Positions 4,103 to 21,809 of a stretch of 64,000 nucleotides of DNA are shown here, piece by piece (the stretch's first letter is position 1; each line of letters begins with the position of its first letter). The stretch is from Candidatus Poribacteria bacterium (lineage in GTDB: Bacteria; Poribacteria; WGA-4E; WGA-3G): NCBI GenBank assembly GCA_026710795.1, contig JAPOQK010000037.1, positions 37,514 to 101,513 of the forward strand, given 5' to 3'. Made by a program: the position numbers and the translations under genes. The notes beneath the pieces are model-generated. The model was not told the DNA's origin. It worked only from the letters and a program-made list of their open reading frames with translations, and made no database searches.

Positions 4103-4913
4103 AAATCCTCAGTTGGTTATTTCTGCTGAGGAACTGAAAAATAGTCTTGATGATACGTATTGTATCGTTGATACACGTCCGACACATGAATATATCCAAG
4201 GGCATATACCAGGGGCACTTCATCTTGACCTGTTTGGATTGAGTTTGATCAATACACGCAAAGAGACATTAGATACATTTATGTGGATGATTGCCTACCT
4301 ATTCCAACAACGTGGTATTGATCCAGCGAAAACCATAATTTGGTATGATAATATCTCAGGCATATATGCATCTCGTGGTTTTTGGTTTTGCGAGTATTTA
4401 GGACATCAAGAGAATCGTGTTTTAGATGGTGGCTTTAATGCATGGTTAGCAGCAGAAGGTTCGGTCAGTACAGAAGGTGTAGAACCCCCTAAAGTACCGC
4501 AATTTCCCATAGAGACGATCCACGAATTACATATGGATGCGAATCTGATACATTCAAATCTGACTCAAGACGATTTTGTCTCACTTGATACACGTACAGA
4601 TGAAGAACATTATGGACGAGTTGCTCGGGCAAAACGGGCAGGGGCAATACCAGGGTCGGTCCATATTGAGTGGGTCAATAATCTTGATGATTCTGGGGCG
4701 TTCAAACCTGCTGCTGAACTGAGAGAAATGTACGAAGCAGCAGGAATAACGCATGGAAAAAGGGTAATGTGCTACTGACAGGGCGGCTACCGTTCTTCGC
4801 AGACCTATTTAGCATTGCGGCTTATCGGGTATCAGTTAGTAAGCAATTACATTGGGTCTTGGAAAGAATGGGGAGACCAGCTGGATTTGCCGGTCGAAAT
4901 TCCTGAAGAATAG
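4083..4913 (+). CDS. Two-domain rhodanese / thiosulfate-3-mercaptopyruvate sulfurtransferase with in-frame TGA (putative selenocysteine) at the catalytic position
   Basis: The called ORF ends at TGA 4776-4778 (..KRVMCY*). The same frame continues QGGYRSSQTYLALRLIGYQLVSNYIGSWKEWGDQLDLPVEIPEE to TAG at 4911-4913. This is the canonical rhodanese C-terminus: active loop C-x-x-G-x-R, then GY..V..Y.GSW.EW. The TGA aligns with the catalytic Cys (U-Q-G-G-Y-R). Confidence 0.7.
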
Positions 4914-5661: not shown

Positions 5662-6888
5662 TTAATGCAAAAAGTGTGCGTCCACTGTATCGCCTGATTG
5701 TAAGGTCGCGCCAGATGGAATTATGATTAACCCATTTGCTAAAACGAGAGAATGTAATATACCCGAACCTTGTGGACCTGTCGTTTTTGCAATGTATTGA
5801 CCATTCTTTTCTGTAAGGATTGCACGCATATAGTTAACCCTACCATCTTTGTTGGTTACATCTGTTTCCAAAATGGCTTTTATGGTTGGACGTAACAAGT
5901 CGGTATGTCCAGCCATTTTCATGAGTGCAGGACGCACAAAAAGTTCAAAAACAACGAGTGAAGATACAGGATTTCCGGGTAATCCAAAGACAGGTTTTCC
6001 ATCAATTATTCCATATGCTTGTGGTTTTCCGGGTTTCATTGCCACACGCCAAAAGTTCATCTTACCCAATTTCGTCAGGACGTTTTTCACAATATCATGT
6101 TCACCGACAGACACACCACCGCTTGTTATTAGAGCATCGGCTTTAGCTATAGATTCTCGGAATATACGTTCTGTTTCCGTTTCATCATCCGGAGCAATTC
6201 CCATATCTATAGGAATTCCTCCTGCATTCTGCACTTGTGCATACATTCCGTATCGGTTACTATCTCTTATCTTACCGGGTTTGAGTGGTTCACCGAGTGG
6301 TGTGAGTTCATCACCAGTTGAGACAATGGCAACCGTCGGTTTTTGATGTACCGTAACTTCCGCACAATTCAGAGAAGCCATCATAGAAATTTCAGGTGGA
6401 CGCAAAACTTTACCGGGAGACATCACACAATCACCTTTTTTTACGCTCTCACCCGTAAAACGAACATTCTCATTTCTCTCAACACTCTCAAATATTTTTA
6501 CTTCGTCTCCAACAAGTTCTGTCACCTCTTGCATGACAACAGCATCAGCACCGTCTGGCATCATTGCACCGGTCATAATCCGTGCGGTTTGTCCACCGGA
6601 AACTTGTTCTTTTGGAGCATATCCTGCAGCTATGGTTTCCACAACTGATAACACTGTAGGATTTTCTTTGGTTGTTCCTTTCACATCTGTTGAACGAACT
6701 GCAAAACCGTCCATAGCAGAATTATCAAAAGGTGGGATGTTTTCTTTTGCGTGTAATTCTTCTGCAAGAACATATCCGGAACATTCAAGTATACCTCGGT
6801 TTTCTGTTGGTAAGATAGGGATACTTTCCAACATCTGTTGGCGTGCTTCTTCAACACTTAGCATTAAATTCACTCCAATCTTCTTCAC
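5662..6888 (-). CDS. moeA: Molybdopterin molybdotransferase MoeA
   Basis: It has the MoeA N-terminal domain (FDNSAMDGFAV) and a central MoCF-binding domain (GDEL...ALITSGGVSVGEHD), consistent with the MoeA/gephyrin E family. Confidence 0.85.
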   Translation of the reverse strand: MKKIGVNLMLSVEEARQQMLESIPILPTENRGILECSGYVLAEELHAKENIPPFDNSAMDGFAVRSTDVKGTTKENPTVLSVVETIAAGYAPKEQVSGGQTARIMTGAMMPDGADAVVMQEVTELVGDEVKIFESVERNENVRFTGESVKKGDCVMSPGKVLRPPEISMMASLNCAEVTVHQKPTVAIVSTGDELTPLGEPLKPGKIRDSNRYGMYAQVQNAGGIPIDMGIAPDDETETERIFRESIAKADALITSGGVSVGEHDIVKNVLTKLGKMNFWRVAMKPGKPQAYGIIDGKPVFGLPGNPVSSLVVFELFVRPALMKMAGHTDLLRPTIKAILETDVTNKDGRVNYMRAILTEKNGQYIAKTTGPQGSGILHSLVLANGLIIIPSGATLQSGDTVDAHFLH

Positions 6889-7536: not shown

Positions 7537-9480
7537 TTACTGTCTACCTTCTACCAATGCATCAACTACTGTTGGATCGGCAAGTGTAGACGTATCACCG
7601 AGATTAGATATATCACCTTCTGCAATTTTACGAAGAATACGCCGCATAATCTTACCTGATCGGGTTTTCGGTAATGCTGGAGTAAACTGTATCTTATCCG
7701 GTGTTGCGATAGGTCCAATATGTTGTCGTACGGCTTGTTTGATACCAGTCTCTACATCATCGGATGCAGATTCACCTGTCATGAGTGTGACATACGCATA
7801 GATTCCCTGTCCCTTGATGTCGTGTGTGTAGCCAACAACTGCAGCTTCTGCCACAGCATCATGTTGTCCAATAGCACCTTCAACTTCTGCTGTTCCTAAC
7901 CTATGTCCGGAAACATTCAGAACATCATCTACACGACCAGTAATCCAGTAATATCCATCTTCATCACGCAGCACACCATCACCAGTCATGTAATATCCTG
8001 GGAATCTTCTGAAATAGACATCAATGAAACGTTCATGATCACCATAAACTGTTCGCATGATACCGGGCCACGCTGTCTTAATACATAAATAACCCGTTGC
8101 TGGGTTGCCTTCGACTTCTTTACCTTCTTCATCCAATATCACAGGTTCAATTCCAAAGAAGGGGAACGTTGCAGAACCCGGTTTAAGCGGAGTTGCAGCA
8201 GGTAAAGGAGTAATCAGAATTCCACCAGTTTCTGTCTGCCACCACGTATCAATAATCGGACACCTTTTGTCACCAACAATGTTATAATACCACAACCATT
8301 CAGGCTCTTTAATGGGTTCACCGACTGTGCCGAGTAAACGTAGCGTTGATCTGTCGTATTTCTCCACCCACGTATTACCTTCCTTCATTAATGCGCGTAG
8401 TGCTGTGGGGGCAGTGTAGAATAGATTGATTTTGTGCTTTTCCACAACCTGCCAAAAACGACCAAAATCTGGATAGTTTGGAACACCTTCAAACATAACG
8501 GAAATGGCACGATTTGCAAGTGGTCCGTAGATGATGTATGAATGTCCGGTAATCCAACCAATATCCGCAGTGCACCAGTAAACATCACCTTCGTGGTAGT
8601 CAAATACCTGTTGATGGGTATATGAGGTATAAACCAGATAACCGCCTGTGGTATGTAAAACACCTTTCGGTTTTCCTGTTGATCCAGATGTATATAGAAT
8701 GAAGAGTGGGTCTTCAGCATTCATCACTTCCGGTTCACATTCGGCATCAGCAGTTTCCATCGCTTCGTGCCACCAAATATCACGTGATGCATCAAAATCT
8801 ACAGCATCACCCGTGCGTTTAACGACTACGATCTTTTCAATAGATGGACAAACTTCCACCGCAGCATCAGCATTCGCTTTCATCGGTATATCGCTTCGTG
8901 TCCCACGCAACGCTGTATCTTGTGTTATCAATAGTTTGCATGCAGAATCGTTTATACGATCTCGCAGCGATTCAGCAGAAAACGCACCGAATACAATGGA
9001 ATGAACTGCGCCTATTCTTGCACAAGCCAACATAGCAATTGATAATTCTGGGACCATTTGCAGGTAGATACAGACACGATCACCTTTTTCAACACCTTGT
9101 GCCTTCAAGACATTAGCAAACTTCTTTACTTCTACAAGTAATTCATTAAAACTGAATGTCTTATCCTCAGAAGGATCATTACCCTCCCAAATAATCGCTG
9201 TTTCATCTCCATATCCTGCTTCCACATGACGATCGACACAGTTATAACAAGCGTTTAAAGTACCACCCTCAAACCATTTTATCTCTGCTTTCACAAAATC
9301 GTAATCACGAACTGTATCCCATTTTTGATACCACGTCAACCGTTCAGCAATTGTTGCCCAAAAACCCTCTGGGTCTTGGATTGATTCAGCGTACCTTTGC
9401 TGATATGCCTCCAAACTATTAACGTGAGCGTCACCGATTGGATAAGCAGTTTCCATCGGTGGGAAAACATTATTAGCCAT
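7537..9480 (-). CDS. acs: Acetyl-coenzyme A synthetase (AMP-forming)
   Basis: The 647 aa protein has the Acs N-terminus ([18 protein letters not shown]), the AMP-binding motif [12 protein letters not shown] and a C-terminal [13 protein letters not shown] motif. Confidence 0.9.
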
Positions 9481-9745
9481 CTATTCTCTCCTCTATATAC
9501 TTATTCTCTATGCAATTCTATAGTCTTGAGTTTGTTACATTATATAGTATAACGGGTAGTGTGTCAATACATGAGATGCGAAAATCAGGGATATTTAGTT
9601 TTAGGTTTCTTGGTTATTTTTCACAGGTGTTATTATATCAATATATGATTACTACACCTATGATGTTGTCTTGTTACAGTCTCGGAGAGGAAACATTCCA
9701 TTTGGCATGAACCATTCTGTAACAGACATTAATTAATTTGACTTT

Positions 9746-9779
9746 TTAGGTAATATATAATATAATTATAGTTACCTAA
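9746..9779. promoter_or_regulatory. Inverted repeat TTAGGTAA-N18-TTACCTAA in the acs/rrf2 divergent promoter region (candidate Rrf2 operator)
   Basis: The 8 bp arms at 9746-9753 and 9772-9779 are exact reverse complements. They sit about 35 bp upstream of the Rrf2 regulator start, in an AT-rich divergent region. Confidence 0.3.
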
Positions 9780-9809
9780 ATTGGTTAGGTATAGAAAGGA
9801 TGGACGCAA

Positions 9810-10247
9810 ATGCAGTTATCCGCTAAATTGAAATATGCAGTTTGTGCAATGTTGGAACTCGGTTTACAATATCACAAACAATTTGTTTCTGTTACTGTGT
9901 TGTCAGAAAAACGCAGTATTCCTGGACCGTATTTGGAGAAACTTCTATTACAACTCAAACACGCTGGTTTAACTACAAGTCGACGAGGACCTGATGGTGG
10001 ATATAGTCTCGCACTACCTCCAGATCAAATACGGATAGGTGATATATTCGCAGCGGTGGCAGGTCCAGTTAATTTCACAGAAGGTTTTGAATCACAGGAA
10101 TCATCTGAAATAGGTGACTTTTTTGCTGAGATTGAGGAAGAGGTATGTAAAGTTTTGAACACAAAGACATTACATGAACTTTGTTGTCATGCACGGAAAA
10201 TCAATCAATTGTCAGCACCAACACATTCACATCCGTTTTCTATATGA
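9810..10247 (+). CDS. Rrf2-family transcriptional regulator (CymR-like, no Cys-x5-Cys-x5-Cys cluster ligands)
   Basis: It has the N-terminal HTH (MQLSAKLKYAVCAMLELG ... RRGPDGGYSLA). Its stop TGA overlaps the cysteine synthase start (ATGA). Confidence 0.8.
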   Translation: MQLSAKLKYAVCAMLELGLQYHKQFVSVTVLSEKRSIPGPYLEKLLLQLKHAGLTTSRRGPDGGYSLALPPDQIRIGDIFAAVAGPVNFTEGFESQESSEIGDFFAEIEEEVCKVLNTKTLHELCCHARKINQLSAPTHSHPFSI

Positions 10248-11194
10248 AACTCGCTAAAAATCTGACAAAACTCATCGGGAATACTCCGATGGTTCGACTA
10301 AATGCACTGCCGAATAAGGAAGATGCAACAATATATGCAAAGTTGGAATCCTATAATCCAGGTGGTAGCATAAAAGATCGTATCAGTTACGGCATGGTTG
10401 TAGATGCTGAAAAACGCGGCATTCTAAAACCAGGTGATACTATAGTTGAACCAACAGCAGGAAACACAGGTATAGGTCTCTCTATTGTCGGTGTGGCACG
10501 AGGTTATCATGTAATTTTAACCATGCCGGAGTATGTGAGTAGTGAAAAATATGCACTTCTTTCCGCTTTTGGGGCAGATATTGTATTAACACCAGAACAC
10601 GGAGGAATGGCAAGTGCAATTTGGGAAGCAGAGGAAATCATACGACGCAATTCACGACATTATATGCCTAACCAATTTGCGAATCCTGCAAACCCTCAGA
10701 TACATAGACAGACCACTGCAATTGAAATCTTGAAATCCGTAGGAAGTAATATAGATTATCTTGTTATAGGTGTAGGCACAGGTGGCACCTTAACAGGTGT
10801 TGGTGAAGTGATTAAGTCTCACAATCCGAAAACCAAAATTGTGGCTGTTGAACCACTGGTTTCATCGGTGTTATCAGGTGGAATGCCAGGACCAACACGC
10901 ATCGACGGACTCGGTGCAGGTATGGTCCCTGAAGTCTTGAATGTAGATATTATAGATGATGTAATTCCAGTTTCAGAAGAGACGGCTTACGAGATGATGA
11001 AAGAAATATCCAAAAAAGAGGGGTTGTTAGTAGGAATGTCTTCTGGAGCAAATGTGTATGCATCATTACAAGTCGCACAAGGTATTGGTCCAGAAAAGAC
11101 TGTGGTAACAATATTACCGGACACTGGTGAACGTTACTTTAGTTTGAGCAGGTATTTTGAACTTGAGACAGGTATAATGGAAACTATATCATAA
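10244..11194 (+). CDS. Cysteine synthase (CysK/CysM family, PLP-dependent)
   Basis: From the ATG at 10244 it reads MKLAKNLTKLIGNTPMVRLN...SYNPGGSIKDRI...TAGNTGIGL...GVGTGGTLTGVG, the classical OASS motifs. The 6-frame ORF from 10181 is an upstream run-in. Confidence 0.85.
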   Translation: MKLAKNLTKLIGNTPMVRLNALPNKEDATIYAKLESYNPGGSIKDRISYGMVVDAEKRGILKPGDTIVEPTAGNTGIGLSIVGVARGYHVILTMPEYVSSEKYALLSAFGADIVLTPEHGGMASAIWEAEEIIRRNSRHYMPNQFANPANPQIHRQTTAIEILKSVGSNIDYLVIGVGTGGTLTGVGEVIKSHNPKTKIVAVEPLVSSVLSGGMPGPTRIDGLGAGMVPEVLNVDIIDDVIPVSEETAYEMMKEISKKEGLLVGMSSGANVYASLQVAQGIGPEKTVVTILPDTGERYFSLSRYFELETGIMETIS

Positions 11195-11221
11195 AGAGAG
11201 TAACAGTAGGTATTTTTCGGT

Positions 11222-11980
11222 ATGACATGTCAAATTCAGAGTGCTTCAATTATGGAATTGAAGCAGCAGTTAAGTTTAACAGAAAACCCACAGGACGTTC
11301 TTTTTACTCTCTTTAAGAGGTTTAAAGATCGCGCAGCAATTGTTACAAGTGGTCAGTTGACCGGTATGGTCCAGATACATCTCGCAGCAGAAAACAAGGT
11401 GCCATTCAGGGTGTGTACAGTAGACACACTCCGACTATTCCCAGAAACCTATACTTTTTTTGAAAAAGTTGAAGAACGATATGGAATTGAAATTGAACGT
11501 ATTCAACCAGACATGTCTGAAGTTGATAAAATGGTTTCAGAACACGGGGAACACCTGTTTTTTGACAGCAGGACAAAACAAGAATTTTGTTGTGATATAC
11601 GAAAAATAAGACCTATGGAACGACTTTTAGATACATTGGATATTTGGATCACTGGCACGAGAAGAGATCAATCCGAAACCCGACAAAATTTCCAGAAAGT
11701 AGAAACAATTTCATCTAAACCCCATCCGGTACTCAAAGTAAGTCCATTGATATATTGGACAACTGAACAGGTGTGGGAATTTGTCCTTGAAAATGAAGTA
11801 CCTGTCAATCCCCTTTTTCTACCAAATGAAAATGGGCACTACTTCGATTCACTCGGGTGTATGACCTGTACAACACGGATTCGTCCTGGTGAGTCAAAAC
11901 GTGCTGGTCGATGGCGGTGGCAAAATACAACAGATACTGATCAAAACAACAAAGAGTGTGGATTGCACTACGCTATTTGA
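11222..11980 (+). CDS. cysH: Iron-sulfur APS/PAPS reductase (CysH family)
   Basis: It has LFPETYTFFEKVEERYG, then the Cys-Cys pair (EFCCDIRKIRPMER), then CMTC, and ends KECGLH like E. coli CysH. Confidence 0.75.
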   Translation: MTCQIQSASIMELKQQLSLTENPQDVLFTLFKRFKDRAAIVTSGQLTGMVQIHLAAENKVPFRVCTVDTLRLFPETYTFFEKVEERYGIEIERIQPDMSEVDKMVSEHGEHLFFDSRTKQEFCCDIRKIRPMERLLDTLDIWITGTRRDQSETRQNFQKVETISSKPHPVLKVSPLIYWTTEQVWEFVLENEVPVNPLFLPNENGHYFDSLGCMTCTTRIRPGESKRAGRWRWQNTTDTDQNNKECGLHYAI

Positions 11981-12073
11981 TTTCAGAACACATCAGCAGA
12001 TTTACATATCCGCAATTTGGATATTCAAACTATATTATGTTATCATAACACTGTCCTGATAAAGGAGGAAAAT

Positions 12074-12361
12074 ATGGCTGTAACAGTTCGTATACCGACC
12101 CCGTTGAGACGCTTGACACAGAATCTCGCGGAGGTTGAAACTGAAGGCACAGATATTGAAACTATCATTGAAAATCTGGAATCTGACTATCCAGGGATGA
12201 AAGAACGTCTCTGCGATGATGAAGGAAAAATACGACGTTTTGTAAACATTTATCTTAACGACGAAGATATCCGTTTTCTTGATGGAAAAGAAACAGCAGT
12301 TACAGATGGTGCTGAAATATCTATAATTCCTGCCATTGCAGGTGGTTTACCCCTTTCCTAA
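12074..12361 (+). CDS. MoaD/ThiS/CysO-like ubiquitin-fold sulfur-carrier protein with a 4-residue tail after the Gly-Gly
   Basis: From the start MAVTVRIPTPLRR (AAAGGAGG RBS 8 nt upstream) it reads ...GAEISIIPAIAGG-LPLS*. The beta-grasp carrier ends in GG followed by LPLS. Confidence 0.65.
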   Translation: MAVTVRIPTPLRRLTQNLAEVETEGTDIETIIENLESDYPGMKERLCDDEGKIRRFVNIYLNDEDIRFLDGKETAVTDGAEISIIPAIAGGLPLS

Positions 12362-12374
12362 TATCAATGTCTTA

Positions 12375-12407
12375 GCATACAGGCAGATACTATATCCGCC
12401 TGTATGC
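12375..12407 (+). promoter_or_regulatory. Perfect 10 bp stem hairpin (GCATACAGGC-N13-GCCTGTATGC) occluding the JAMM gene start codon
   Basis: The 3' arm at 12398-12407 contains the ATG at 12404-12406 of the downstream JAMM ORF. No U-tract follows. Confidence 0.35.
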
Positions 12408-12907
12408 GATACACACCGATAGTCACTCACGATTTAATGTTAACGCTACTACCGAAAACTTTGAATGAGATCTGTGAACATGCCAAGGCAGAATTTCCCG
12501 AAGAATGCTGCGGTGTAATATTATATGCCGAACAGAAGGAATTTGTCAGACCTTGTCGTAATATCCAAAATGAGATGCATAATGCTGAGCCAGAAACATA
12601 TCCACGGGATGCCCGAACAGCCTACTTAATGCATCCCGATGACCTGATTGCAATACACAAAGAGGCAGAAACACAACATCGTCCAATTAAAGCATTTTAT
12701 CATTCTCATCCAAACCATGAAGTGTATTTTTCAGAAAAAGATAAATCAGATGCAATGATATGGGGTGAACCCGCATATCCAGGGGTTGCATACCTCGTTA
12801 TCTCAATAATTGACAATACAATTAGAATAATCAAAGCTTTTGCATGGGACGAAACAAATTCAGATTTTATTGAAGTACCAATACAGACACACCATCAGGA
12901 GCAATAA
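12404..12907 (+). CDS. JAMM/MPN+ metalloprotease (Mec+-like)
   Basis: It has E..CG (EECCGVIL) and the JAMM motif HSHPNHEVYFSEKD (H-S-H-x7-S-x2-D). Confidence 0.8.
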   Translation: MRYTPIVTHDLMLTLLPKTLNEICEHAKAEFPEECCGVILYAEQKEFVRPCRNIQNEMHNAEPETYPRDARTAYLMHPDDLIAIHKEAETQHRPIKAFYHSHPNHEVYFSEKDKSDAMIWGEPAYPGVAYLVISIIDNTIRIIKAFAWDETNSDFIEVPIQTHHQEQ

Positions 12908-12909
12908 AG

Positions 12910-13149
12910 ATGACTGCATTAAAGGTTCGTCTAACTTTTCCTCCAGAAAAAATAAAAGAACCAATAATATACAATATCGGACAACAATTTGGCGTGATTA
13001 CCAATATCAGACGGGCAAATGTGACAGAGGAATCAGGATGGGTGATGTTAGAAATGCAAGGTAAGTCTGAACAAATTGAACGCGCTATAGATTACCTAAA
13101 AAATATCAAAGTCCAAATTGAGCCTGTTGAAGGTGATGTTGTCCAGTAA
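12910..13149 (+). CDS. NIL-domain small protein (MetN C-terminal-like ferredoxin-fold domain)
   Basis: The 79 aa ORF has VITNI..A.V...G.VMLEMQG..EQIERAIDYLKNIKVQIE, which resembles the NIL/ACT-like domain. It starts 3 nt after the JAMM stop. Confidence 0.5.
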   Translation: MTALKVRLTFPPEKIKEPIIYNIGQQFGVITNIRRANVTEESGWVMLEMQGKSEQIERAIDYLKNIKVQIEPVEGDVVQ

Positions 13150-13199
13150 GAATCTGTTCCTTAACATTCTGAACGCCATTTGCTTAACAATAAGAGCCA

Positions 13200-15539
13200 T
13201 TGATGCGAATCCTGCAAACAGGACTATTCCGTACTCTCCAAAGATTTCTACCAGACTTTAATATCAGTTTCAGTGTTCACCTCCGTCCATACATACGCAT
13301 TATTACAATCTCCGCATTTTCACTCGCAATAGGATTAGGAGTCACACTACGGAATTATCTTGTATTTGAATTCCATGACACATCGGGAGTTGTTGGTTGG
13401 ATAAGTGTTAATCAATATCCAAAACAACAGGAATTTTTCTACTACATTCTTGCGCTGGTTGGAATTCCAATCCTCATTTGGATTTACTGGTTCATCTGGT
13501 TAACTTATTCAAATTGGGCTGCAAAGGCAACGAATCAACCGATCCACCGTGTCCTAAAATATAATGCACTCGCTTCAATTCCGTTGTGGTTATGTTGGTT
13601 GCAGGTTTATTACTATGATCAGGCTGGAATTACCGGCTTAGTCCTTCCTATCGGGTTAACTCTATCTCTTGAATTCGTCTTACTGTTGCATTGGCACTAC
13701 TCTCAACGATTCCAGCCGAAAACTGTAAAACGCGATACAGTCAATGTAGAACCCGTGACACTTCAAAGTGGGATAATACCTCAAAAACCAAAAGGAGTTA
13801 GGATATTATTCTGTGTGTGTCAATACGTCCTGATACCGATTATTATATACCTACTCGTATATAATGGAAATATTGATCGCGGTATTGATATGTTCCATGA
13901 AGGTGAACGTCTCGCTCCACTAAATGAGATGTTACATGGTGGTGTAGTATTCCGTGATGTTTATGTGCAACATGGAATGTTTCAAAATGCTTATTTGGCA
14001 TGGTTCGGTAATAAGATATTTGAACCTACTTTAGCGGGTGTACGCTCTATGGAGCGTGTCTTGTCACCACTTGGCTATATTGCCATATATCTTCTTGGCT
14101 TACAAGTATTTCGTGGACGATTCCTAACAGCATTTGTATGTTTCCTGATAGTATCTGGAAGTAACTTTTCAGTTTCTCCAAGACATTCTCTCGGCTTACT
14201 TAGTTTTGTTTTCATCGCAAATTATCTAACTTACAACCGAGAGAAAGGATTATTCATTCCTTGGCAACGCAATCTATCTGAAAAACCTACTTGGATCATG
14301 CATCTTGTTAGGTTCGGCTGGAAACTTATTTTGGCTGGATTCTTCACAAGTTTAGCATTTTGGTATAGTACAGAAGTTGGTTTGTATACGCTCGGTGCAA
14401 TAGGTCTATTTCTGACGATATATAGTCTACAACGTAGGATACAACTTCACCTACGACCATTACCGCTAATAGCGTATTGTAGTGGAATTCTATTAGGATT
14501 TCTTCCAGTTGCAATCTATTTCTTAACACACGGTGCATTGGACGATATGATATGGAACTCCTACATACAGTGTAAATACCAGATTGCGACGTGGGGACTA
14601 AAATTTCCATCACTGTCAAGTACAATTGCGATCATATCAGAGAATGGGTGGAGAGATTTTTTACTCAGTACAGGATTTCGATGGTATCTTCCAATATTTG
14701 TATACATGTGTACTGCAGCATATCTAACATACCTGCGGTTATGTAGGAGTAGTGTTTCCGCAGATGATGCGTTGAAACTACTGCTGTTGTTTCTCGGTGG
14801 TATTGCCTATTTCCGTACTGCCCTCGGCAGATCAGACGGAGGTCATTTACATTTCGGTTCAACCTTTTTATGGCTTATCTGTTTGTTCCCAATAGACAGA
14901 GGTATATCGGGTATTCTTAACCTATTCAGGATAGGTGAGATAGGGGAAGGTATACGTAATCGTTTTTCTATACTAAAAGACAAGGCACGATGGCGGAGTG
15001 CTATGAAAGCTGCATGGATACTAATTCCAATTGCTGTATGTGTCTGGTATGTTGGTGAAATTCATCACCCATTGGAAGGTTTACGTAACAAATGGAAACA
15101 GATGCGTGCAAACCAGTTTAAACCACGTAATGCCTCTGTGGAATTGGAACGTGCTGGAAAGGTTGATATACCTGATGGTCAGGTTGAGCAGATTCAGAAG
15201 GTTGTGGCTTTTATTCAGGAAAATACTGATACAGAGGAAAAGATATTCGACTTTACAAGTCAGGGAGCATATTACTTCTTTGCTAATCGACCAAGTGTTA
15301 CCCGTTTTCACATGGTATCGTATGCATCAACTCCAGGAATGCAGCATGAGGTTATCGCTGACCTCAAAAAGGATCAAACACGATTAGTGATCTTTAAAAC
15401 TGGGGGTTGGTTTGATAGGGTTGACGGTATTCCTGTTGAGGAGCGGCATCCACTTATAGCGAAATACTTAAAGGAAAACTACGAACTTGCTATTGATATT
15501 AACAATACAGAGATTTTGTTCCGAAAAAATTTGCGTTGA
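13200..15539 (+). CDS. Large polytopic membrane protein with a C-terminal soluble domain (GT-C-like architecture, unknown function)
   Basis: The 779 aa protein has more than 12 hydrophobic helices across the first roughly 550 aa, then a roughly 200 aa hydrophilic C-terminus. I recognise no diagnostic motif. Confidence 0.5.
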   Translation: MMRILQTGLFRTLQRFLPDFNISFSVHLRPYIRIITISAFSLAIGLGVTLRNYLVFEFHDTSGVVGWISVNQYPKQQEFFYYILALVGIPILIWIYWFIWLTYSNWAAKATNQPIHRVLKYNALASIPLWLCWLQVYYYDQAGITGLVLPIGLTLSLEFVLLLHWHYSQRFQPKTVKRDTVNVEPVTLQSGIIPQKPKGVRILFCVCQYVLIPIIIYLLVYNGNIDRGIDMFHEGERLAPLNEMLHGGVVFRDVYVQHGMFQNAYLAWFGNKIFEPTLAGVRSMERVLSPLGYIAIYLLGLQVFRGRFLTAFVCFLIVSGSNFSVSPRHSLGLLSFVFIANYLTYNREKGLFIPWQRNLSEKPTWIMHLVRFGWKLILAGFFTSLAFWYSTEVGLYTLGAIGLFLTIYSLQRRIQLHLRPLPLIAYCSGILLGFLPVAIYFLTHGALDDMIWNSYIQCKYQIATWGLKFPSLSSTIAIISENGWRDFLLSTGFRWYLPIFVYMCTAAYLTYLRLCRSSVSADDALKLLLLFLGGIAYFRTALGRSDGGHLHFGSTFLWLICLFPIDRGISGILNLFRIGEIGEGIRNRFSILKDKARWRSAMKAAWILIPIAVCVWYVGEIHHPLEGLRNKWKQMRANQFKPRNASVELERAGKVDIPDGQVEQIQKVVAFIQENTDTEEKIFDFTSQGAYYFFANRPSVTRFHMVSYASTPGMQHEVIADLKKDQTRLVIFKTGGWFDRVDGIPVEERHPLIAKYLKENYELAIDINNTEILFRKNLR

Positions 15540-16669: not shown

Positions 16670-17101
16670 TTAACCCACTGGTGATTCTATCTGTTCTACA
16701 GCAGTTTGTGCACCTTGTCGGACGAGTGCTGACGTGTCGTTTTGAGCAAGATATTTAAGTTTGTTAAGACTCGGTTTTGCTGCAAGTCTGCCAAGTGCAA
16801 CAGCAACGAAGTATCGGACATCAGCATCCTCATCCTCAAGTGCCTCAAGCAATGCTTCTGTGTCAGATGGAGTGGCAAGATGACGATCCAAATCTCCTAT
16901 ATTAATTAACGACTGCGCAGCAATACGGCGTGCATGAATATCACCATGGCGAAGTGACGCAAGTAGTTCGTCATTCCCATTCGTTATCTCAGATAAGTTG
17001 TCCCAATCGCAATCTAAACAAAACCATGATTTTTCATCCAACTGCTGAAGGTTGGTATTGCTACATTTGGGACAAGTTCCGCTCTTTTTTTGCTGCATCA
17101 T
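16670..17101 (-). CDS. Zn-ribbon plus HEAT (PBS-lyase-type) repeat protein
   Basis: It has CPKC...CLDC at the N-terminus, then repeats of the ..ARRIAAQSLINIGD.. / DVRYFVAVALGRLA type. Confidence 0.55.
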   Translation of the reverse strand: MMQQKKSGTCPKCSNTNLQQLDEKSWFCLDCDWDNLSEITNGNDELLASLRHGDIHARRIAAQSLINIGDLDRHLATPSDTEALLEALEDEDADVRYFVAVALGRLAAKPSLNKLKYLAQNDTSALVRQGAQTAVEQIESPVG

Positions 17102-17484
17102 GAGGTATTGATATCCTCCAATTCAGGCAAATCTCTCCAAATTTCTGGACCTTCCGGTTTGAAATTAATTGTTGCAATGAACTGCATGCCGTGGTAGAAG
17201 TTAATTTTGAACTTTCCTCCACCATAATTCTGTTTGAGGTAATCCAATGGTGCTTTAATTAGAGGTCCCATTTCGTCTGCATAATAGAAAGCAAGCGGTT
17301 TGAACCTTACTGTGTTGCCCACAGGTTCTTGTACTAAAAGTTGAGCGGATGTAGCGGGAAACAGTACTTGGAAAGCATCCCATAAGTCAGCGACAGTTGG
17401 GTTTGATTTCCCGATTCGCTTTTTAAAATCGTTTTCAAGATATTCAGAGAATGTGTTAAAAACCCAGTCCATAGTTATATCCAA
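17098..17484 (-). CDS. Hypothetical protein
   Basis: The 128 aa ORF is translationally coupled (ATGA) to the HEAT gene. No motif is recognised. Confidence 0.45.
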   Translation of the reverse strand: MDITMDWVFNTFSEYLENDFKKRIGKSNPTVADLWDAFQVLFPATSAQLLVQEPVGNTVRFKPLAFYYADEMGPLIKAPLDYLKQNYGGGKFKINFYHGMQFIATINFKPEGPEIWRDLPELEDINTS

Positions 17485-17581
17485 TCAACATAAAACGAAA
17501 GAATCATTATAATCCAGGAGCCTTCAAGAAGTCCTTCCAATCAAAATTCGGCAGAGGGAACTCCTCTGTGGCTTTACATTG

Positions 17582-17995
17582 TCAGAACGTTGCAGCTTGT
17601 TCAAAGAACTCAATATCCACACGTTCAACTTGTGCGGAACGTGCATTCTCTGCTACACGTTGGACAACCATCTCCCGCACAAATGGTATTGGAATACGTT
17701 TTACACGATGTACTACTTCGTCTGTGCAAGGTACATTTGTGTTATCAAGGTACGGTCCATCAAGTAGTTCTGCTTCTGCAGGATGGTCACATGTTTCCGG
17801 TACAAGTTGTTGTAACCGCATTGACACGTAATCTGTCACCCACTGTTGTATTTTTTCTGTGCCATCAGTCTCGGTAGCACTCACTTGTTGCGTCTGTGCC
17901 AACTTCTCATCAATGCTTGTAAGCAAACTTTCCAAACGTGCTAAACGGTCTTCCACATTTGTTAGTCGTTCTTGTGCGTTTATTTGATCGCTCAT
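17582..17995 (-). CDS. Coiled-coil protein with a C-terminal PCP_red-like module
   Basis: The C-terminus VVHRVKRIPIPFVREMVVQRVAENARSAQVERVDIEFFEQA matches the W/x-x-E-A..L..IP.FVR.....E.A...G...I module seen in ChlB/BchB C-termini (PF08369). Confidence 0.5.
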   Translation of the reverse strand: MSDQINAQERLTNVEDRLARLESLLTSIDEKLAQTQQVSATETDGTEKIQQWVTDYVSMRLQQLVPETCDHPAEAELLDGPYLDNTNVPCTDEVVHRVKRIPIPFVREMVVQRVAENARSAQVERVDIEFFEQAATF

Positions 17996-18004
17996 GTTTC
18001 CTCC

Positions 18005-18730
18005 TCAAATTGACCAATATTTCCATAGGTCTTCTGGAATTTCGTATCTAATCTCTTCACGACGTTTGTGATGATAACGTGCGAATAATCCGATGCGAGG
18101 TATGTCTCTTATATTTCCTGAACCTGTATGACACAAATAAGCATGCCATAGTACGACATCCCCAGCAGACGCAATAAATTCTCTGGGTCCCTCAGGTGAT
18201 AAATCTGAAAATACATGCCATCCCCAACCCTCAATCTCTGTAAAACTTCCATCTACTTGTTTTGGATGTTTCAGGAAGTATTTATGTGTTGTCTTATGAC
18301 TTTGGGGCCAATATACGAATGCCCCACCACCGGGTTCAACATCGTATACATAAGTTGTTGCCCCCATCAAAAACGGACTCCATCCGCCGGGACCATAAGC
18401 ATCAATGTGTCCACTACCCGGCAACTTCCATTCCTCATCCGGTTTTGGCCATCTAACAAGGGGTGAACCGCCGCCACCTACAAACTGACCACCACCTAAT
18501 TGATCAATAATCTCTTGCATCGCAGGTAATTGTCCGAACTGAGGTGAGAAACCGAAGTTTTGCACAACATACTCATTTGGCCAGGTCTCTGGCGTATTCA
18601 GACTGGAATTGAAATGTTTCCAGATCTGTTCCCGCCATCCATCAATTGTATCTGAATCAATAAGGTTTTCAAGTATTAGGTATCCATTTTCTTGAAAAAA
18701 ATCTACCTGTTTTGCTGTTAGCATATACAA
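18005..18730 (-). CDS. Phytanoyl-CoA dioxygenase (PhyH)-family Fe(II)/2OG oxygenase
   Basis: It has LTAKQVDFFQENGYLILENLI..., HIDAYG and WHAYLCHTGSGN, the PhyH-like pattern. Confidence 0.65.
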   Translation of the reverse strand: MYMLTAKQVDFFQENGYLILENLIDSDTIDGWREQIWKHFNSSLNTPETWPNEYVVQNFGFSPQFGQLPAMQEIIDQLGGGQFVGGGGSPLVRWPKPDEEWKLPGSGHIDAYGPGGWSPFLMGATTYVYDVEPGGGAFVYWPQSHKTTHKYFLKHPKQVDGSFTEIEGWGWHVFSDLSPEGPREFIASAGDVVLWHAYLCHTGSGNIRDIPRIGLFARYHHKRREEIRYEIPEDLWKYWSI

Positions 18731-18796
18731 GTTTCCTCAATTGTTTTGTGTTAAGAAAATCAGACTTACAAATCCTTCTACAGAAGATACACAGTT

Positions 18797-20101: not shown

Positions 20102-20104
20102 TTG

Positions 20105-20560
20105 TTATCTCAATAACATTGCAAGCGCGAACACAATTAATCCAGAAAAAAGTGTTAAATGACCAAAGATAGTGATATGAGGTGGCACGTTAACTTTGCT
20201 TTCTGGTTGTGTTGCTTCAAGATGTCGTCTAAACGACGAACTGTATAATCCCCAAAAGAGTGTCATAATACCGAATGCTGCTAACTTTGCACCTGAATAT
20301 ATCATATATTCCGTTTCGATTTTCATATCGTTATTCCAAGCAACTATGAAGATTACAATTCCACCAGTTAGTAAGATAATATTTATTACCACTTTGATTA
20401 GGTGCCGAAATCGGTTGTGGATTGCCAATAGGTCTTGCGCTGGTAGATTCTGCCGAACTATTGGGATTGCAATCAAGGTTGAAAAAACAATACCTCCAAA
20501 CCAAATAATTACTGCAATGAGATGGATATATCGAATAAAAAGTTCAACAAACGTCCGCAT
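20105..20560 (-). CDS. Four-helix membrane protein, CopD/HemJ-like
   Basis: It has the HLIAVIIWFGGIVF motif (H..A...W.GG), shared by the CopD and HemJ families. Confidence 0.45.
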   Translation of the reverse strand: MRTFVELFIRYIHLIAVIIWFGGIVFSTLIAIPIVRQNLPAQDLLAIHNRFRHLIKVVINIILLTGGIVIFIVAWNNDMKIETEYMIYSGAKLAAFGIMTLFWGLYSSSFRRHLEATQPESKVNVPPHITIFGHLTLFSGLIVFALAMLLR

Positions 20561-20808
20561 TGTCTGTTTTATTCTGAATTTACCTTATGATTAAGTATCA
20601 GATTATACTACCTCAGAGAATTCTGTTACATAACCGAACTATGTAGCCCATACTTTTCGTTGACAAAGATATGATGCAAACTAATAGTTTACGTTACAAA
20701 AAGATTCATATTTCGAGTTCACGTTATTATAAGTTGACACTATCGGTAAAGCCTTCTTAGGTGATAGCATTTGAAAGTAGAAGCATCATATCCTTACCTC
20801 ATGAAAAT

Positions 20809-20886
20809 GTGACCTTTTGCACGTCACTGTGACGTTTTGAATCCAGTCAGGATAAGGAATGTGACGCGAATTTCGCTTTTTTTTTT
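20809..20886 (+). repeat. Copy 2 of the roughly 78 bp intergenic repeat (inverted relative to copy 1), ending in a hairpin plus T10 on the + strand
   Basis: The sequence is GTGACCTTTTGCACGTCACTGTGACGTTTTGAATCCAGTCAGGATAAGGAATGTGACGCGAATTTCGC-T10. It contains the 15 bp palindrome ACGTCAC-T-GTGACGT. Confidence 0.6.
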
Positions 20887-21224
20887 GGGCACCCTTTTGG
20901 TTCTGTTTCATTCAATATATAGGTGTAAATTTAAGAACATACCTGTCATTCGCGGGATCAACGCACTCCAAGATAATTGTTGATTTCGCTAAGATTACAA
21001 TTTTGGGTTCCTGCATCATTAGGATTCTCTTAGACAAAGTTAACTTTTTGGAATATATTGTTTGGTTTTTCAATGTTTTCACACTTGAATAATATGATTG
21101 TTTGATGGCATTTATTGTAAATTTGCTTAGTAATTAATTGAATCAACTATTTGTAAAATATAATATAACACATATATTAACGTTTGTCAAATTATTTTTC
21201 TGTATATGTATTATTTATATCCGA

Positions 21225-21761: not shown

Positions 21762-21809
21762 TGTTTAGTCTCCATCATTTACTGAAAAGTCGAAGCACAG
21801 TAACTCATA

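What the first reader, a model, noticed from the sequence alone, without database searches (positions are those of the whole stretch)
9810..13149. Mycobacterial-type protein-thiocarboxylate cysteine route: Rrf2 regulator, cysteine synthase, Fe-S APS reductase, CysO-like carrier with post-GG tail, Mec+ JAMM protease and a NIL-domain protein
The ubiquitin-like carrier ends ...AIAGG-LPLS. A JAMM metalloprotease (HSHPNHEVYFSEKD) follows. This matches the CysO/Mec+ logic, in which the protease processes the tail or the CysO-Cys adduct. The Rrf2 regulator lacks cluster-ligating Cys, as CymR does. The NIL-domain mini-protein is coupled 3 nt after the JAMM stop. No E1-like MoeZ is adjacent.
Basis: partly seen in the sequence, partly recalled or inferred. 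Interest (0 to 1): 0.55.

Follow-up and report, generated by a model that had tools for sequence, protein, structure and literature searches.

The report
Sponge-bacterium sulfur-carrier cysteine operon with NIL partner
This is a real, strongly conserved operon of sponge-associated Poribacteria that most likely makes cysteine by passing sulfur through a small ubiquitin-like carrier protein; it is a variant of a known pathway, and its small "NIL" protein also turns up with such carriers in other bacteria, a link I found in none of the papers I could search.

Summary
They are a CymR-like Rrf2 regulator, a PLP cysteine synthase, an Fe-S-type APS reductase, a CysO-like carrier ending AIAGG-LPLS, a JAMM/MPN+ protease and a 79-aa NIL protein.

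The window is Candidatus Poribacteria, from a sponge metagenome. The core synthase>reductase>carrier>JAMM is kept in about 76 of 80 poribacterial loci, so the adjacency is not chance.

The carrier is most like M. tuberculosis CysO (E 2e-22). The synthase, however, is CysK-type, not the mycobacterial CysM type. An APS reductase sits inside the operon. No E1 lies in the window or in any of the 80 loci. "Mycobacterial-type" is therefore only partly right.

Tails after GG vary freely (0-8 residues), as expected of a pro-sequence that is cut off.

NIL is fused to the JAMM in 27 poribacterial loci. In Thermodesulfobacteriota/Deltaproteobacteria it is fused to the carrier itself, directly behind GG, inside complete carrier/E1/JAMM/PLP-enzyme operons. 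NIL therefore looks like a recurrent accessory part of protein-thiocarboxylate Cys/Hcy synthesis. Its role is inferred only: an ACT-like amino-acid sensor or an adduct-recognition domain.

Verdict: new variant of a known kind; interest about 0.5.

The parts
9738..9766 (+). Sigma-70-like promoter (TTGACT-17 nt-TATAAT) upstream of the Rrf2 gene
   Evidence: Matches 11 of 12 consensus positions. The region is strongly conserved upstream of Rrf2 in about 30 poribacterial loci. Function is inferred.
9745..9780 (.). Perfect inverted repeat TTTAGGTAA-N18-TTACCTAAA overlapping the promoter. A further half-site, TTAGGT, lies at about 9786. This is the candidate Rrf2 operator.
   Evidence: repeat I5; sequence; conservation. 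Binding is not tested.
9810..10247 (+). CymR-like Rrf2 transcription regulator (145 aa) without the canonical cluster-ligating cysteines
   Evidence: Pfam Rrf2 98.6 bits. The best specific NCBIfam model is CymR at 81 bits, below its cut-off of 195. Best PDB matches are S. aureus and B. subtilis CymR. Among 35 orthologs, C125 is invariant, C126 is kept in 28 and C12 in 33.
10244..11194 (+). CysK-type (OASS-A-like) PLP cysteine synthase, 316 aa. Its start overlaps the Rrf2 stop (ATGA).
   Evidence: TIGR01139 cysK 400 bits (cut-off 351); cysM 276 bits (cut-off 394). The top PDB hits are all CysK. GGSIKDR and PTAGNTG are invariant, the loop is PTRIDG(L/I)GAG, and there is a conserved acidic C-terminal extension.
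11222..11980 (+). Assimilatory APS/PAPS reductase CysH with the Fe-S cysteine set (C123, C124, C213, C216) and the catalytic C246 in ECGLH
   Evidence: PAPS_reduct 140 bits. NF002537 216 bits, above its cut-off of 154. Best PDB match is P. aeruginosa APS reductase 2goy, E 2e-38, with all Cys aligned.
12074..12361 (+). CysO-like ubiquitin-fold sulfur carrier, 95 aa. The G90-G91 codons are at 12341-12346 and the LPLS pro-tail at 12347-12358. A strong AGGAGG ribosome-binding site precedes it.
   Evidence: ThiS 57 bits. M. tuberculosis CysO 3dwg_C E 2e-22 over the full length. The core ...IIPAIAGG is nearly invariant, while tails are hypervariable at 0-8 residues.
12375..12407 (+). Stem-loop (15-nt arms, 3-nt loop) in the carrier-JAMM spacer. 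It overlaps the first in-frame ATG of the JAMM ORF.
   Evidence: repeat I1. A strong hairpin of differing sequence sits at the same place in most of the 40 loci printed. No T-run follows it. Its role (mRNA stability or attenuation) is inferred.
12404..12907 (+). JAMM/MPN+ metalloprotease (Mec-like). The catalytic residues are E34, H100, H102, S110 and D113, with HSHPNHEVYFSEKD at 12701-12742. Most homologs start at the residue equal to M12 (12437).
   Evidence: Prok-JAB 65.8 bits. The motif is invariant in alignments A1 and A2. The AF2 model best matches P. furiosus JAMM1 bound to SAMP2, and Rpn11. A 67%-identical relative is named '[CysO sulfur-carrier protein]-S-L-cysteine hydrolase' by JGI.
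12910..13149 (+). NIL-domain protein, 79 aa, with no cysteine and an ACT-like beta-alpha-beta-beta-alpha-beta fold. It is translationally coupled to the JAMM.
   Evidence: NIL 59.8 bits. It lies directly after the JAMM in 46 of 80 loci at 59-97% identity. It is fused to the JAMM in many relatives. It is fused behind the carrier's GG in other phyla. Fold neighbours are the MetN C2 domain and the PGDH ACT domain.
13203..15539 (+). Conserved downstream polytopic membrane protein of unknown family (about 778 aa). It may be co-transcribed; whether it belongs to the system is uncertain.
   Evidence: It follows the JAMM/NIL on the same strand in 74 loci. It has no Pfam, NCBIfam or PDB match.

Best explanation
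This is a conserved poribacterial sulfur-assimilation operon. It most likely makes cysteine through a protein thiocarboxylate.

Proposed steps:
1. CysH reduces APS to sulfite. An unlinked sulfite reductase would then give sulfide (inferred).
2. The carrier is made as a pro-protein with a disposable tail. The JAMM trims it to expose Gly-Gly (inferred from tail hypervariability and from the known HcyS/HcyD, QbsE/QbsD and MetO/Mec precedents).
3. An E1 encoded elsewhere (MoeB/MoeZ-like) adenylates the carrier and converts it to the thiocarboxylate (inferred; M. tuberculosis MoeZR is also the activating enzyme there).
4. The CysK-type PLP enzyme forms aminoacrylate, and the thiocarboxylate attacks it. 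The acceptor precursor, O-acetylserine or O-phosphoserine, is not known.
5. After the S-to-N acyl shift, the JAMM hydrolyses carrier-Cys. This releases cysteine and recycles the carrier.

Accessory parts:
- NIL is an accessory, non-catalytic ACT-like domain that works with the carrier/JAMM pair. Most likely it binds a sulfur amino acid, either free product for feedback or the C-terminal Cys of the adduct for recognition.
- The CymR-like Rrf2 represses the operon from a palindrome that overlaps its promoter.
- The conserved hairpin after the carrier gene probably keeps carrier mRNA more abundant than protease mRNA.
For: Domain identities.

Carrier and protease:
- The carrier is closest to experimentally characterised CysO proteins over its full length.
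- The JAMM catalytic motif is invariant.
- The JAMM fold matches a Ubl-bound JAMM1.

Synteny:
- The order synthase>CysH>carrier>JAMM is kept in about 76 of 80 poribacterial loci whose flanks otherwise differ.

Tails:
- The carrier core is nearly invariant, while post-GG tails vary freely in length and sequence (0-8 aa). About a quarter of homologs end at GG. This is the signature of a removed pro-sequence.
- One relative encodes AIAGG-C, which is the product adduct itself.

Relatives outside the phylum:
- The nearest JAMM relatives sit directly after cysteine synthases and next to rhodanese or CysO-like genes.
- Homologous carriers (48-55% identical) and NIL domains (51-59% identical) occur in complete operons: ThrC-like > carrier-NIL > rhodanese-ThiF E1 > JAMM > CysM-like PALP, one of them headed by an Rrf2.

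NIL:
- It is fused to the JAMM in 27 of 80 loci, and the fused/split state changed at least three times on the tree.
- It is fused behind the carrier's GG in a family in which all of the best 120 of 558 hits carry both domains.

Literature:
- The CysO/CysM/Mec/MoeZR mechanism is summarised in PMC3227635.
- The MetO/MetM/Mec/MoeZ route is listed in the GapMind 2026 preprint.
Against: - The synthase is CysK-type, not the CysM type shown to accept CysO-thiocarboxylate. It is only 36-42% identical to the CysM-like enzymes of the complete operons. It could simply use free sulfide.
- No E1, sulfite reductase, ATP sulfurylase or serine-activating gene is found in the window or in 1.57 Mb of poribacterial flanks. 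Whether the genome has them could not be checked.
- The poribacterial JAMM is only 27% identical to the JAMMs of the complete deltaproteobacterial operons. It was not compared directly with Mec+ (Rv1334).
- NIL is absent from a whole 33-locus clade that still has tailed carriers, so NIL is dispensable.
- The AF2 models show flexible linkers and give no evidence of fixed docking.
- Nothing here is biochemical.
Confidence: 0.6

Rival explanations
1. Two modules are merely co-regulated. The CysK-type enzyme makes cysteine in the classical way, from O-acetylserine and free sulfide supplied through CysH. The carrier/JAMM/NIL set serves a different sulfur transfer, such as homocysteine/methionine, a cofactor, tRNA thiolation, or sulfide buffering. 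The genes are clustered only because all respond to sulfur status.
For: - The synthase passes the cysK equivalog cut-off and resembles M. tuberculosis CysK1, a sulfide-using enzyme, far more than CysM.
- It has a CysK-like GLGAG loop, unlike the R-containing loops of the CysM-like enzymes in L091, L094 and L096.
- In loci L021 and L024 the JAMM-NIL pair occurs without synthase, CysH or carrier nearby.
- In other phyla the same carrier/NIL type is paired with ThrC-like (MetM-like) enzymes.
Against: - About 76 of 80 loci keep the four genes contiguous and co-directional despite flank turnover.
- No alternative acceptor enzyme (MetY, MetM-like, MoaE, ThiG) is present in any flank.
- The carrier is closest to CysO.
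- The nearest JAMM relatives outside the phylum follow cysteine synthases.
Confidence: 0.25
2. This is a ubiquitin-like protein-modification system of the SAMP/TtuB/Urm1 kind. The carrier is conjugated to target proteins, possibly the neighbouring sulfur enzymes, and the JAMM removes it to regulate their activity.
For: - The best NCBIfam models are SAMP1 (58.1 bits) and desampylase (54.7 bits).
- The JAMM model matches P. furiosus JAMM1-SAMP2 and a bacterial Ubl-deubiquitinase.
- SAMP1/HvJAMM1 is reported to regulate MPT synthase reversibly (abstract of PMC4443979, listed).
- Carriers of this class are often dual-function.
Against: - Both NCBIfam hits are below their cut-offs (60 and 130).
- The CysO matches are much stronger than the SAMP matches.
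- No E1, E2 or other conjugation gene lies nearby.
- The constant partners are metabolic sulfur enzymes.
Confidence: 0.08
3. Chance juxtaposition, or mis-called small ORFs. On this reading the carrier tail and the NIL ORF are annotation artefacts.
For: The ORFs are short (95 and 79 aa), and the window comes from a metagenome-assembled contig.
Against: - Both small proteins have significant Pfam hits.
- Identical proteins occur on 19 contigs from several sources.
- They have orthologs in 80 genomes.
- The gene order is conserved.
Confidence: 0.01

Closest known systems
M. tuberculosis Mec+/CysO/CysM route with MoeZR (Burns et al. 2005; summarised in PMC3227635)
   Same: - A CysO-type beta-grasp carrier with C-terminal GG. 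The window protein aligns end to end with CysO (3dwg_C) at E 2e-22.
- A JAMM hydrolase encoded next to the carrier and a PLP cysteine synthase.
- An E1 not encoded in the cluster.
   Different: - The synthase is CysK/OASS-A-type rather than the O-phosphoserine-specific CysM type.
- The carrier has a 4-residue tail, whereas the M. tuberculosis CysO chain aligned ends at GG.
- An APS reductase is inside the operon.
- A NIL protein and a CymR-like Rrf2 are attached.
- The host is a different phylum (Poribacteria).
Wolinella succinogenes HcyS/HcyD/HcyF/MetY thiocarboxylate route, and the Iyer et al. 2006 'type 4e' sulfur-assimilation neighbourhoods (PMC1779556)
   Same: - The carrier is made with extra residue(s) after GG that a JAMM must remove. 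This detail for HcyS is from my own knowledge of Krishnamoorthy & Begley 2011.
- A PAPS/APS reductase is linked to the ThiS/MoaD and JAB genes.
   Different: - No E1, SirA, sulfite reductase, ATP sulfurylase or O-acetylhomoserine sulfhydrylase is present here.
- The PLP enzyme is a cysteine synthase, so the likely product is cysteine rather than homocysteine.
Streptomyces albulus MetM/MetO/Mec/MoeZ homocysteine route (Hasebe et al. 2024, as listed in the GapMind 2026 preprint)
   Same: - A sulfur-carrier thiocarboxylate feeds a PLP enzyme.
- Mec is needed to mature the carrier.
- The deltaproteobacterial relatives of the window's carrier and NIL sit beside ThrC-like (MetM-like) genes.
   Different: - No ThrC-like gene is present in any poribacterial locus.
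- I could not read the primary paper, so whether MetO carries a NIL domain is unknown to me.
NIL domains of MetN (methionine ABC importer C2 domain) and of the NIL-ferredoxin protein in the DUF39 homocysteine pathway (Rauch 2014; Price 2017 preprint 10.1101/192971)
   Same: - The same Pfam family (PF09383).
- The same ACT-like fold.
- In all three settings the domain accompanies sulfur-amino-acid transport or synthesis.
   Different: - Here the domain stands alone, or is fused to a JAMM protease or to a ubiquitin-like carrier.
- It has no ferredoxin or ATPase partner domain.
- It has no conserved cysteine.
CymR of Bacillus subtilis / Staphylococcus aureus (cluster-less Rrf2 master regulator of cysteine metabolism)
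   Same: - The best PDB relatives are CymR.
- It lacks the three IscR-type Cys ligands.
- It is encoded with, and translationally coupled to, a CysK-type enzyme. That B. subtilis CymR acts in a complex with CysK is my own knowledge (Tanous et al. 2008).
   Different: - It scores 81 bits against the CymR equivalog cut-off of 195.
- It has its own invariant C-terminal motif, ELCCHARK...PTHSHP.
- DNA binding and any CysK complex are untested.

Membership tests
CysO/Mec+/CysM protein-thiocarboxylate cysteine pathway (M. tuberculosis type) | ThiS/MoaD-fold carrier with C-terminal Gly-Gly, of the CysO subfamily | tested here: met
   PF02597 57 bits. Best PDB match is M. tuberculosis CysO 3dwg_C, E 2e-22, residues 1-91 aligned to 1-93; next is A. 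orientalis CysO 4n6e_B. GG is followed by a 4-aa tail.
CysO/Mec+/CysM protein-thiocarboxylate cysteine pathway (M. tuberculosis type) | JAMM/MPN+ zinc hydrolase with an E...HxH...S..D motif encoded beside the carrier | tested here: met
   PF14464 65.8 bits. E34, H100, H102, S110 and D113 are invariant. Direct orthology to Rv1334 was not tested because I had no Mec+ sequence. JGI labels a 67%-identical relative as CysO-Cys hydrolase.
CysO/Mec+/CysM protein-thiocarboxylate cysteine pathway (M. tuberculosis type) | CysM-type (O-phosphoserine-specific) cysteine synthase | tested here: not met
   cysK equivalog 400 bits, above its cut-off of 351. cysM 276 bits, below 394. M. tuberculosis CysK1 2q3b scores 318 bits, while M. 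tuberculosis CysM is absent from the best 60 PDB hits, all at or above 229 bits. The loop is CysK-like, PTRIDGLGAGMVP.
CysO/Mec+/CysM protein-thiocarboxylate cysteine pathway (M. tuberculosis type) | MoeZ-type E1 (ThiF plus rhodanese) in the genome to make the thiocarboxylate | tested here: inconclusive
   No E1 was found in the window (Pfam gene tables for about 2.4-63.5 kb; tblastn over all 64 kb) or in 80 loci with up to 10-kb flanks. The rest of the genome could not be searched. A stand-alone rhodanese lies at 4083-4778.
CysO/Mec+/CysM protein-thiocarboxylate cysteine pathway (M. tuberculosis type) | Formation of carrier-COSH and of a carrier-Cys adduct, and hydrolysis of that adduct | not testable with these tools
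   This needs biochemistry.
HcyS/HcyD-type and Iyer type-4e sulfur-assimilation Ubl operons | Carrier with post-GG residues, plus a JAMM, plus a PAPS/APS reductase in one operon | tested here: met
   Tail LPLS. CysH lies directly upstream of the carrier. The neighbourhood type is described in PMC1779556.
HcyS/HcyD-type and Iyer type-4e sulfur-assimilation Ubl operons | E1, SirA, sulfite reductase, ATP sulfurylase and O-acetylhomoserine sulfhydrylase in the same cluster | tested here: not met
   None was found in the window or among the recurrent flanking gene clusters.
MetM/MetO/Mec/MoeZ homocysteine route | ThrC-like MetM next to the carrier | tested here: not met
   tblastn with a ThrC-like query found nothing in 1.57 Mb of poribacterial loci. 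The gene is present only in the deltaproteobacterial relatives.
CymR (cluster-less Rrf2 cysteine regulator) | Rrf2 winged helix without the C-x(5-6)-C-x(5-6)-C ligands, scoring as the CymR equivalog | tested here: inconclusive
   The Rrf2 domain is met. No Cys lies in the ligand region, and the best PDB matches are CymR. The CymR model scores 81 bits against a cut-off of 195.
Fe-S assimilatory APS reductase (bacterial CysH with a 4Fe-4S cluster) | CC...CxxC cluster cysteines plus the catalytic ECGLH | tested here: met
   C123, C124, C213, C216 and C246 align to P. aeruginosa APS reductase 2goy. TIGR02055 scores 191.5 bits, below its cut-off of 235, but NF002537 scores 216 bits, above 154. APS versus PAPS preference is not decidable from sequence.
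SAMP/desampylase ubiquitin-like conjugation | SAMP1 and desampylase equivalog scores, with a UbaA-type E1 | tested here: not met
   SAMP1 58.1 bits, below 60. Desampylase 54.7 bits, below 130. No E1 was found.
NIL domain (PF09383) | Match to the Pfam model and an ACT-like fold | tested here: met
   59.8 bits against a cut-off of 24. The AF2 models give beta-alpha-beta-beta-alpha-beta. Foldseek matches MetN C2 domains and PGDH ACT domains.

The most novel reading that the evidence does not exclude
The NIL domain is a dedicated fourth component of protein-thiocarboxylate amino-acid biosynthesis that I did not find described. Depending on lineage, it is delivered in one of three forms:
- as a free 80-aa protein;
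- as the C-terminal domain of the JAMM hydrolase (Poribacteria);
- as a cleavable extension fused directly behind the carrier's Gly-Gly (Thermodesulfobacteriota/Deltaproteobacteria). In this form every carrier molecule is born capped by NIL, and the JAMM must release it.

Once free or tethered, NIL would bind a sulfur amino acid: cysteine, homocysteine or methionine, or the C-terminal Cys/Hcy of the carrier adduct. In that way it would gate carrier maturation and recycling.

This would also give a handle on the unexplained NIL module of the DUF39/NIL-ferredoxin homocysteine pathway.
Probability: 0.35. Interest if true: 0.7.

Novelty: new variant of a known kind. Interest (0 to 1): 0.5.

Why it matters
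- The carrier-protein route to cysteine is currently discussed mainly for actinomycetes. These results place it in a CysK-type, E1-unlinked form as a phylum-wide trait of uncultured sponge symbionts. That bears on how these bacteria handle reactive sulfide in an oxic, sulfate-rich host.
- Three independent gene arrangements (free, JAMM-fused, carrier-fused) link the poorly understood NIL domain to ubiquitin-like sulfur carriers. This turns a 'domain of vague function' into a concrete, cheap set of binding and cleavage experiments.
- If a CysK-type enzyme accepts a protein thiocarboxylate, the accepted rule that this chemistry needs a CysM-type enzyme would have to be relaxed.

Tried and rejected
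1. NIL is needed to remove the tail. Rejected: all 33 loci that lack NIL still encode tailed carriers.
2. Co-occurrence of NIL and Rrf2 (35 of 35 Rrf2 loci have NIL, 0 of 33 JAMM-only loci have Rrf2) is functional evidence. Rejected: on a CysK+CysH tree it reduces to one NIL loss and one Rrf2 gain.
3. The Thermus 'MoaD-related protein' 1v8c is a solved carrier-NIL fusion. Not supported. The Foldseek TM-score (0.47) is no better than for the carrier domain alone, and the carrier-NIL profile matches only residues 4-91.
4. AF2 models of the natural fusions would reveal NIL docking. Inconclusive: the domains are confident, the linkers have pLDDT below 50, and pTM is 0.49 and 0.62.
5. An E1, sulfite reductase or ATP sulfurylase lies in the window or flanks. 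None found.
6. A riboswitch or other known RNA lies in 9400-13300. No Rfam match at E up to 1.
7. The 778-aa downstream membrane protein can be identified. No Pfam, NCBIfam or PDB match.
8. Direct comparison with M. tuberculosis CysM and Mec+ sequences. Not possible, because the PDB tool lists only the best 60 hits and no Mec+ structure matched.
9. Reading Hasebe et al. 2024. The paper is not held.
10. One context look-up (P0440) failed for lack of a free slot.

Full report
**1. What is in the sequence**

Six co-directional ORFs fill 9810-13149 exactly as described. Pfam and NCBIfam identify them as follows:
- Rrf2 regulator, 9810-10247.
- PLP cysteine synthase, 10244-11194. Its start overlaps the Rrf2 stop as ATGA.
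- PAPS_reduct-family reductase, 11222-11980.
- ThiS/MoaD-fold carrier, 12074-12361.
- Prok-JAB metalloprotease, 12404-12907.
- NIL-domain protein, 12910-13149.

The carrier ends ...IIPAIAGG-LPLS. The JAMM carries E34 and H100-S-H102...S110..D113, the motif HSHPNHEVYFSEKD. The reductase has the C123-C124 and C213-x-x-C216 pairs and the catalytic ECGLH. All of these align to the Fe-S APS reductase of P. aeruginosa, 2goy.

The Rrf2 has no cysteine where IscR binds its cluster, and its best solved relatives are the two CymR structures. It does keep an invariant C125 in a conserved C-terminal motif, ELCCHARK...PTHSHP. I cannot explain that motif.

**2. Source and surroundings**

Proteins identical to those of the window occur on ENA, JGI and Logan contigs. 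NCBI names them Candidatus Poribacteria. One sample is an Ircinia variabilis sponge metagenome.

The gene tables for the annotated stretch, about 2.4-63.5 kb of the window, show respiratory and other housekeeping genes. They show no ThiF-type E1, sulfite reductase or ATP sulfurylase. A stand-alone rhodanese (4083-4778) and MoeA (5662-6888) lie upstream.

A promoter-like TTGACT-17-TATAAT at 9738-9766 is overlapped by a perfect inverted repeat, TTTAGGTAA-N18-TTACCTAAA. This region is conserved upstream of Rrf2 in about 30 related loci. That is the layout of an autoregulated repressor, although binding is untested. No Rfam family matches the region.

**3. Conservation**

A scan of one genome per species found 268 relatives of the JAMM. 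The best 80 loci are all Poribacteria. I called ORFs in them and clustered the proteins. The results:
- The order synthase>CysH>carrier>JAMM is present in about 76 of 80 loci.
- The outer flanks differ between clades. They include RraA-like, xylose-isomerase-like, PhyH, GNAT, amidohydrolase and methylase genes.
- A 778-aa membrane protein of unknown family follows in 74 loci. It has no database match.
- Rrf2 is present in 35 loci.
- NIL follows the JAMM directly in 46 loci, at 59-97% identity. In 27 of these it is fused to the JAMM as one protein of about 237 aa.

On a neighbour-joining tree of CysK+CysH, NIL is present on the deepest branches and is lost once, in a 33-locus clade. Rrf2 is gained once. 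The fused and split states of JAMM/NIL alternate at least three times.

**4. The tail**

Across 120 carrier homologs the core up to AIAGG is nearly invariant. What follows varies widely: nothing (29 cases), K, LF, FF, RNLS, ITLS, SSDDERD and others. The same holds in the 80 loci.

Free variation in length and sequence next to a frozen GG is what a discarded pro-sequence looks like. Loci without NIL all have tails, so NIL is not required for trimming.

The nine tail-less carriers in the window's own clade all have a cassette of secreted proteins inserted between carrier and JAMM. The cassette encodes an M48 peptidase, a lipoprotein and a caspase-like peptidase. It probably replaced the 3' end of the carrier gene.

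**5. Which known proteins are they like?**

*Carrier.* M. tuberculosis CysO (3dwg_C) matches at E 2e-22 over the full length, and A. orientalis CysO at 2e-21. MoaD and SAMP proteins score far lower.

*Synthase.* It scores 400 bits on the cysK equivalog (cut-off 351) and 276 bits on cysM (cut-off 394). The best PDB hits are all CysK enzymes, including M. tuberculosis CysK1 at 318 bits. M. tuberculosis CysM, which is present in the same PDB copy as entry 3dwg, is not among the 60 best hits, all of which score at least 229 bits. All 75 orthologs keep GGSIKDR, PTAGNTG and a CysK-like PTRIDG(L/I)GAG loop, plus an acidic C-terminal extension. The defining enzyme of the mycobacterial route is therefore of the other subtype.

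*JAMM.* It has only weak sequence matches to solved structures. An AF2 model of a fused ortholog (pLDDT 86) matches P. furiosus JAMM1 bound to SAMP2, and Rpn11.

**6. Relatives outside the phylum**

I searched a library of 50%-identity representatives with a JAMM-NIL fusion as query. All poribacterial proteins collapsed into one cluster. Several hundred JAMMs of roughly 150-165 aa at 33-47% identity followed, along with several NIL proteins.

Two of the nearest JAMMs could be placed in context:
- One follows a CysM-like synthase and precedes a rhodanese.
- The other follows a synthase and lies near a 60%-identical CysO-like carrier that ends AIAGG-C, which is the product adduct itself.

The NIL relatives were the surprise:
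- P0341 is a CysO-like carrier with NIL fused six residues behind GG.
- P0384 is a ThiS-like carrier with the same arrangement.
- This is a large family. All 120 best hits of 558 are proteins of about 171 aa with ThiS and NIL domains, an invariant GG and a short basic linker. NCBI names them from Deltaproteobacteria and Thermodesulfobacteriota.

Their operons are complete thiocarboxylate modules:
- (Rrf2 >) ThrC-like > carrier-NIL > rhodanese-ThiF E1 (> rhodanese) > JAMM > CysM-like PALP.
- E1 > cysteine synthase > ThiS-NIL.
- In a further genome: MTHFR > ThrC-like > free NIL > carrier.

The window's carrier is 48-55% identical to these carriers and its NIL is 51-59% identical to theirs. Its synthase (36-42%) and its JAMM (27%) are much more distant.

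**7. How it most likely works**

The chemistry of the family is established. An E1 makes a carrier thiocarboxylate. A PLP enzyme adds it to aminoacrylate. A JAMM hydrolyses the carrier-amino-acid adduct and, where needed, matures the carrier (PMC3227635; GapMind 2026 preprint). The neighbourhood types were catalogued in 2006 (PMC1779556).

I infer that the poribacterial operon does the same for cysteine:
- CysH feeds reduced sulfur.
- The JAMM both trims the tail and recycles the carrier.
- An unlinked E1 charges the carrier.
- The CymR-like Rrf2 controls transcription.

A stable hairpin sits between carrier and JAMM in most of the 40 loci printed, with different sequences at each. This suggests that carrier and protease mRNA levels are uncoupled.

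The weak points are the CysK-type synthase, which may simply use sulfide, and the missing E1. I put this reading at 0.6. The 'co-regulated but separate modules' reading gets 0.25, and a protein-modification role about 0.08.

**8. NIL**

NIL has no conserved cysteine, so it is not a persulfide relay. Its fold is ACT-like, and its neighbours are the methionine-binding C2 domain of MetN and the serine-binding ACT domain of PGDH.

NIL domains also accompany the DUF39 homocysteine pathway. AF2 models of both natural fusions show well-folded domains joined by low-confidence linkers. The GG junction has pLDDT below 50, and pTM is 0.49 and 0.62. This fits a cleavable junction but gives no docking information.

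The three arrangements (free, on the JAMM, behind the carrier's GG) argue that NIL works physically with the carrier/JAMM pair. That it senses a sulfur amino acid, or recognises the adduct's terminal residue, is inference. It is dispensable in one poribacterial clade.

A full-text search found no paper that combines 'NIL domain' with 'sulfur carrier', and Iyer et al. 2006 do not mention NIL. I could not read Hasebe et al. 2024.

**9. Verdict**

'Mycobacterial-type' overstates it, however. This is a new variant of a known kind of system: a CysK-type synthase, an embedded APS reductase, a tailed carrier, an unlinked E1, and a NIL accessory. The NIL link to ubiquitin-like sulfur carriers is the part worth following up.

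Noticed in passing
window 12375-12407, and the equivalent spacer in L007-L086: A strong stem-loop lies between the carrier and JAMM genes in most of the 40 loci printed. The stems have quite different sequences, so structure rather than sequence is conserved. No T-run follows. In the window the stem-loop covers the first ATG of the JAMM ORF, while most homologs start at the residue equal to M12 (12437).
   Followed up: partly
L012, L013, L017, L022, L023, L031, L032, L033, L046 (between carrier and JAMM); also L021, L024: A cassette encoding an M48 peptidase, a 151-aa lipoprotein and a caspase-like (Peptidase_C14) protein is inserted between carrier and JAMM. All three have signal or lipobox sequences. 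Exactly these nine loci have carriers ending at GG with no tail, although close relatives without the cassette (the window, L007) keep a tail. In L021 and L024 cassette genes lie next to JAMM-NIL (M48 in L021; the lipoprotein and caspase-like genes in L024) with no synthase, CysH or carrier nearby.
   Followed up: partly
window 13203-15539: A 778-aa polytopic membrane protein follows the operon on the same strand in 74 of 80 loci. It has no Pfam, NCBIfam or PDB match. Whether it belongs to the system is unknown.
   Followed up: partly
window 10182-10247 (Rrf2 C-terminus): The cluster-less Rrf2 has a conserved C-terminal motif, ELCCHARK...PTHSHP. C125 is invariant in 35 orthologs and C126 is kept in 28. 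This may be a non-canonical metal or redox site. It is unexplained.
   Followed up: partly
L009, L010, L015, L016, L025 and others, upstream of Rrf2: The promoter/operator-like unit (TTGACTTTTTTGGTAAG...TATAAT) is tandemly duplicated upstream of Rrf2 in several loci.
   Followed up: no
L097 2705-2983: A marine-metagenome CysO-like carrier, 60% identical to the window's, ends AIAGG-C. The gene therefore encodes the carrier-cysteine adduct that the JAMM is thought to hydrolyse. A 633-aa TPR protein separates it from the JAMM.
   Followed up: partly
proteins P0246, P0270, P0274, P0343: Other architectures appear among relatives: a tandem NIL-NIL protein (164 aa); JAMM fused to a class-III aminotransferase (364 and 577 aa); and JAMM fused to a radical-SAM domain (575 aa).
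   Followed up: no
window 4083-4778 and 5662-6888: A stand-alone rhodanese (231 aa) overlaps the end of a MatE gene, and a MoeA molybdopterin molybdotransferase lies 3-6 kb upstream of the operon. The rhodanese neighbour is shared by only one other locus, so the linkage is weak.
   Followed up: partly
window 17000-27000: A cluster of genes on the - strand carries PCP_red domains. It includes a radical SAM/SPASM protein, a Usp-PCP_red protein, a ParA/CbiA-like ATPase and a PQQ beta-propeller protein. Parts of it (HEAT, the unknown families c9 and c10, PhyH-like, radical SAM) are syntenic with the operon in most loci.
   Followed up: no
window 27000-50000: A large respiratory gene block lies here: COX1/2/3/4, CtaA/CtaB, SCO1, a cytochrome bd-like subunit I with multihaem cytochromes c, and Rieske/cytochrome b. 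Two N6_N4 DNA methylase genes are embedded at 28509-29378 and 59199-59969.
   Followed up: no
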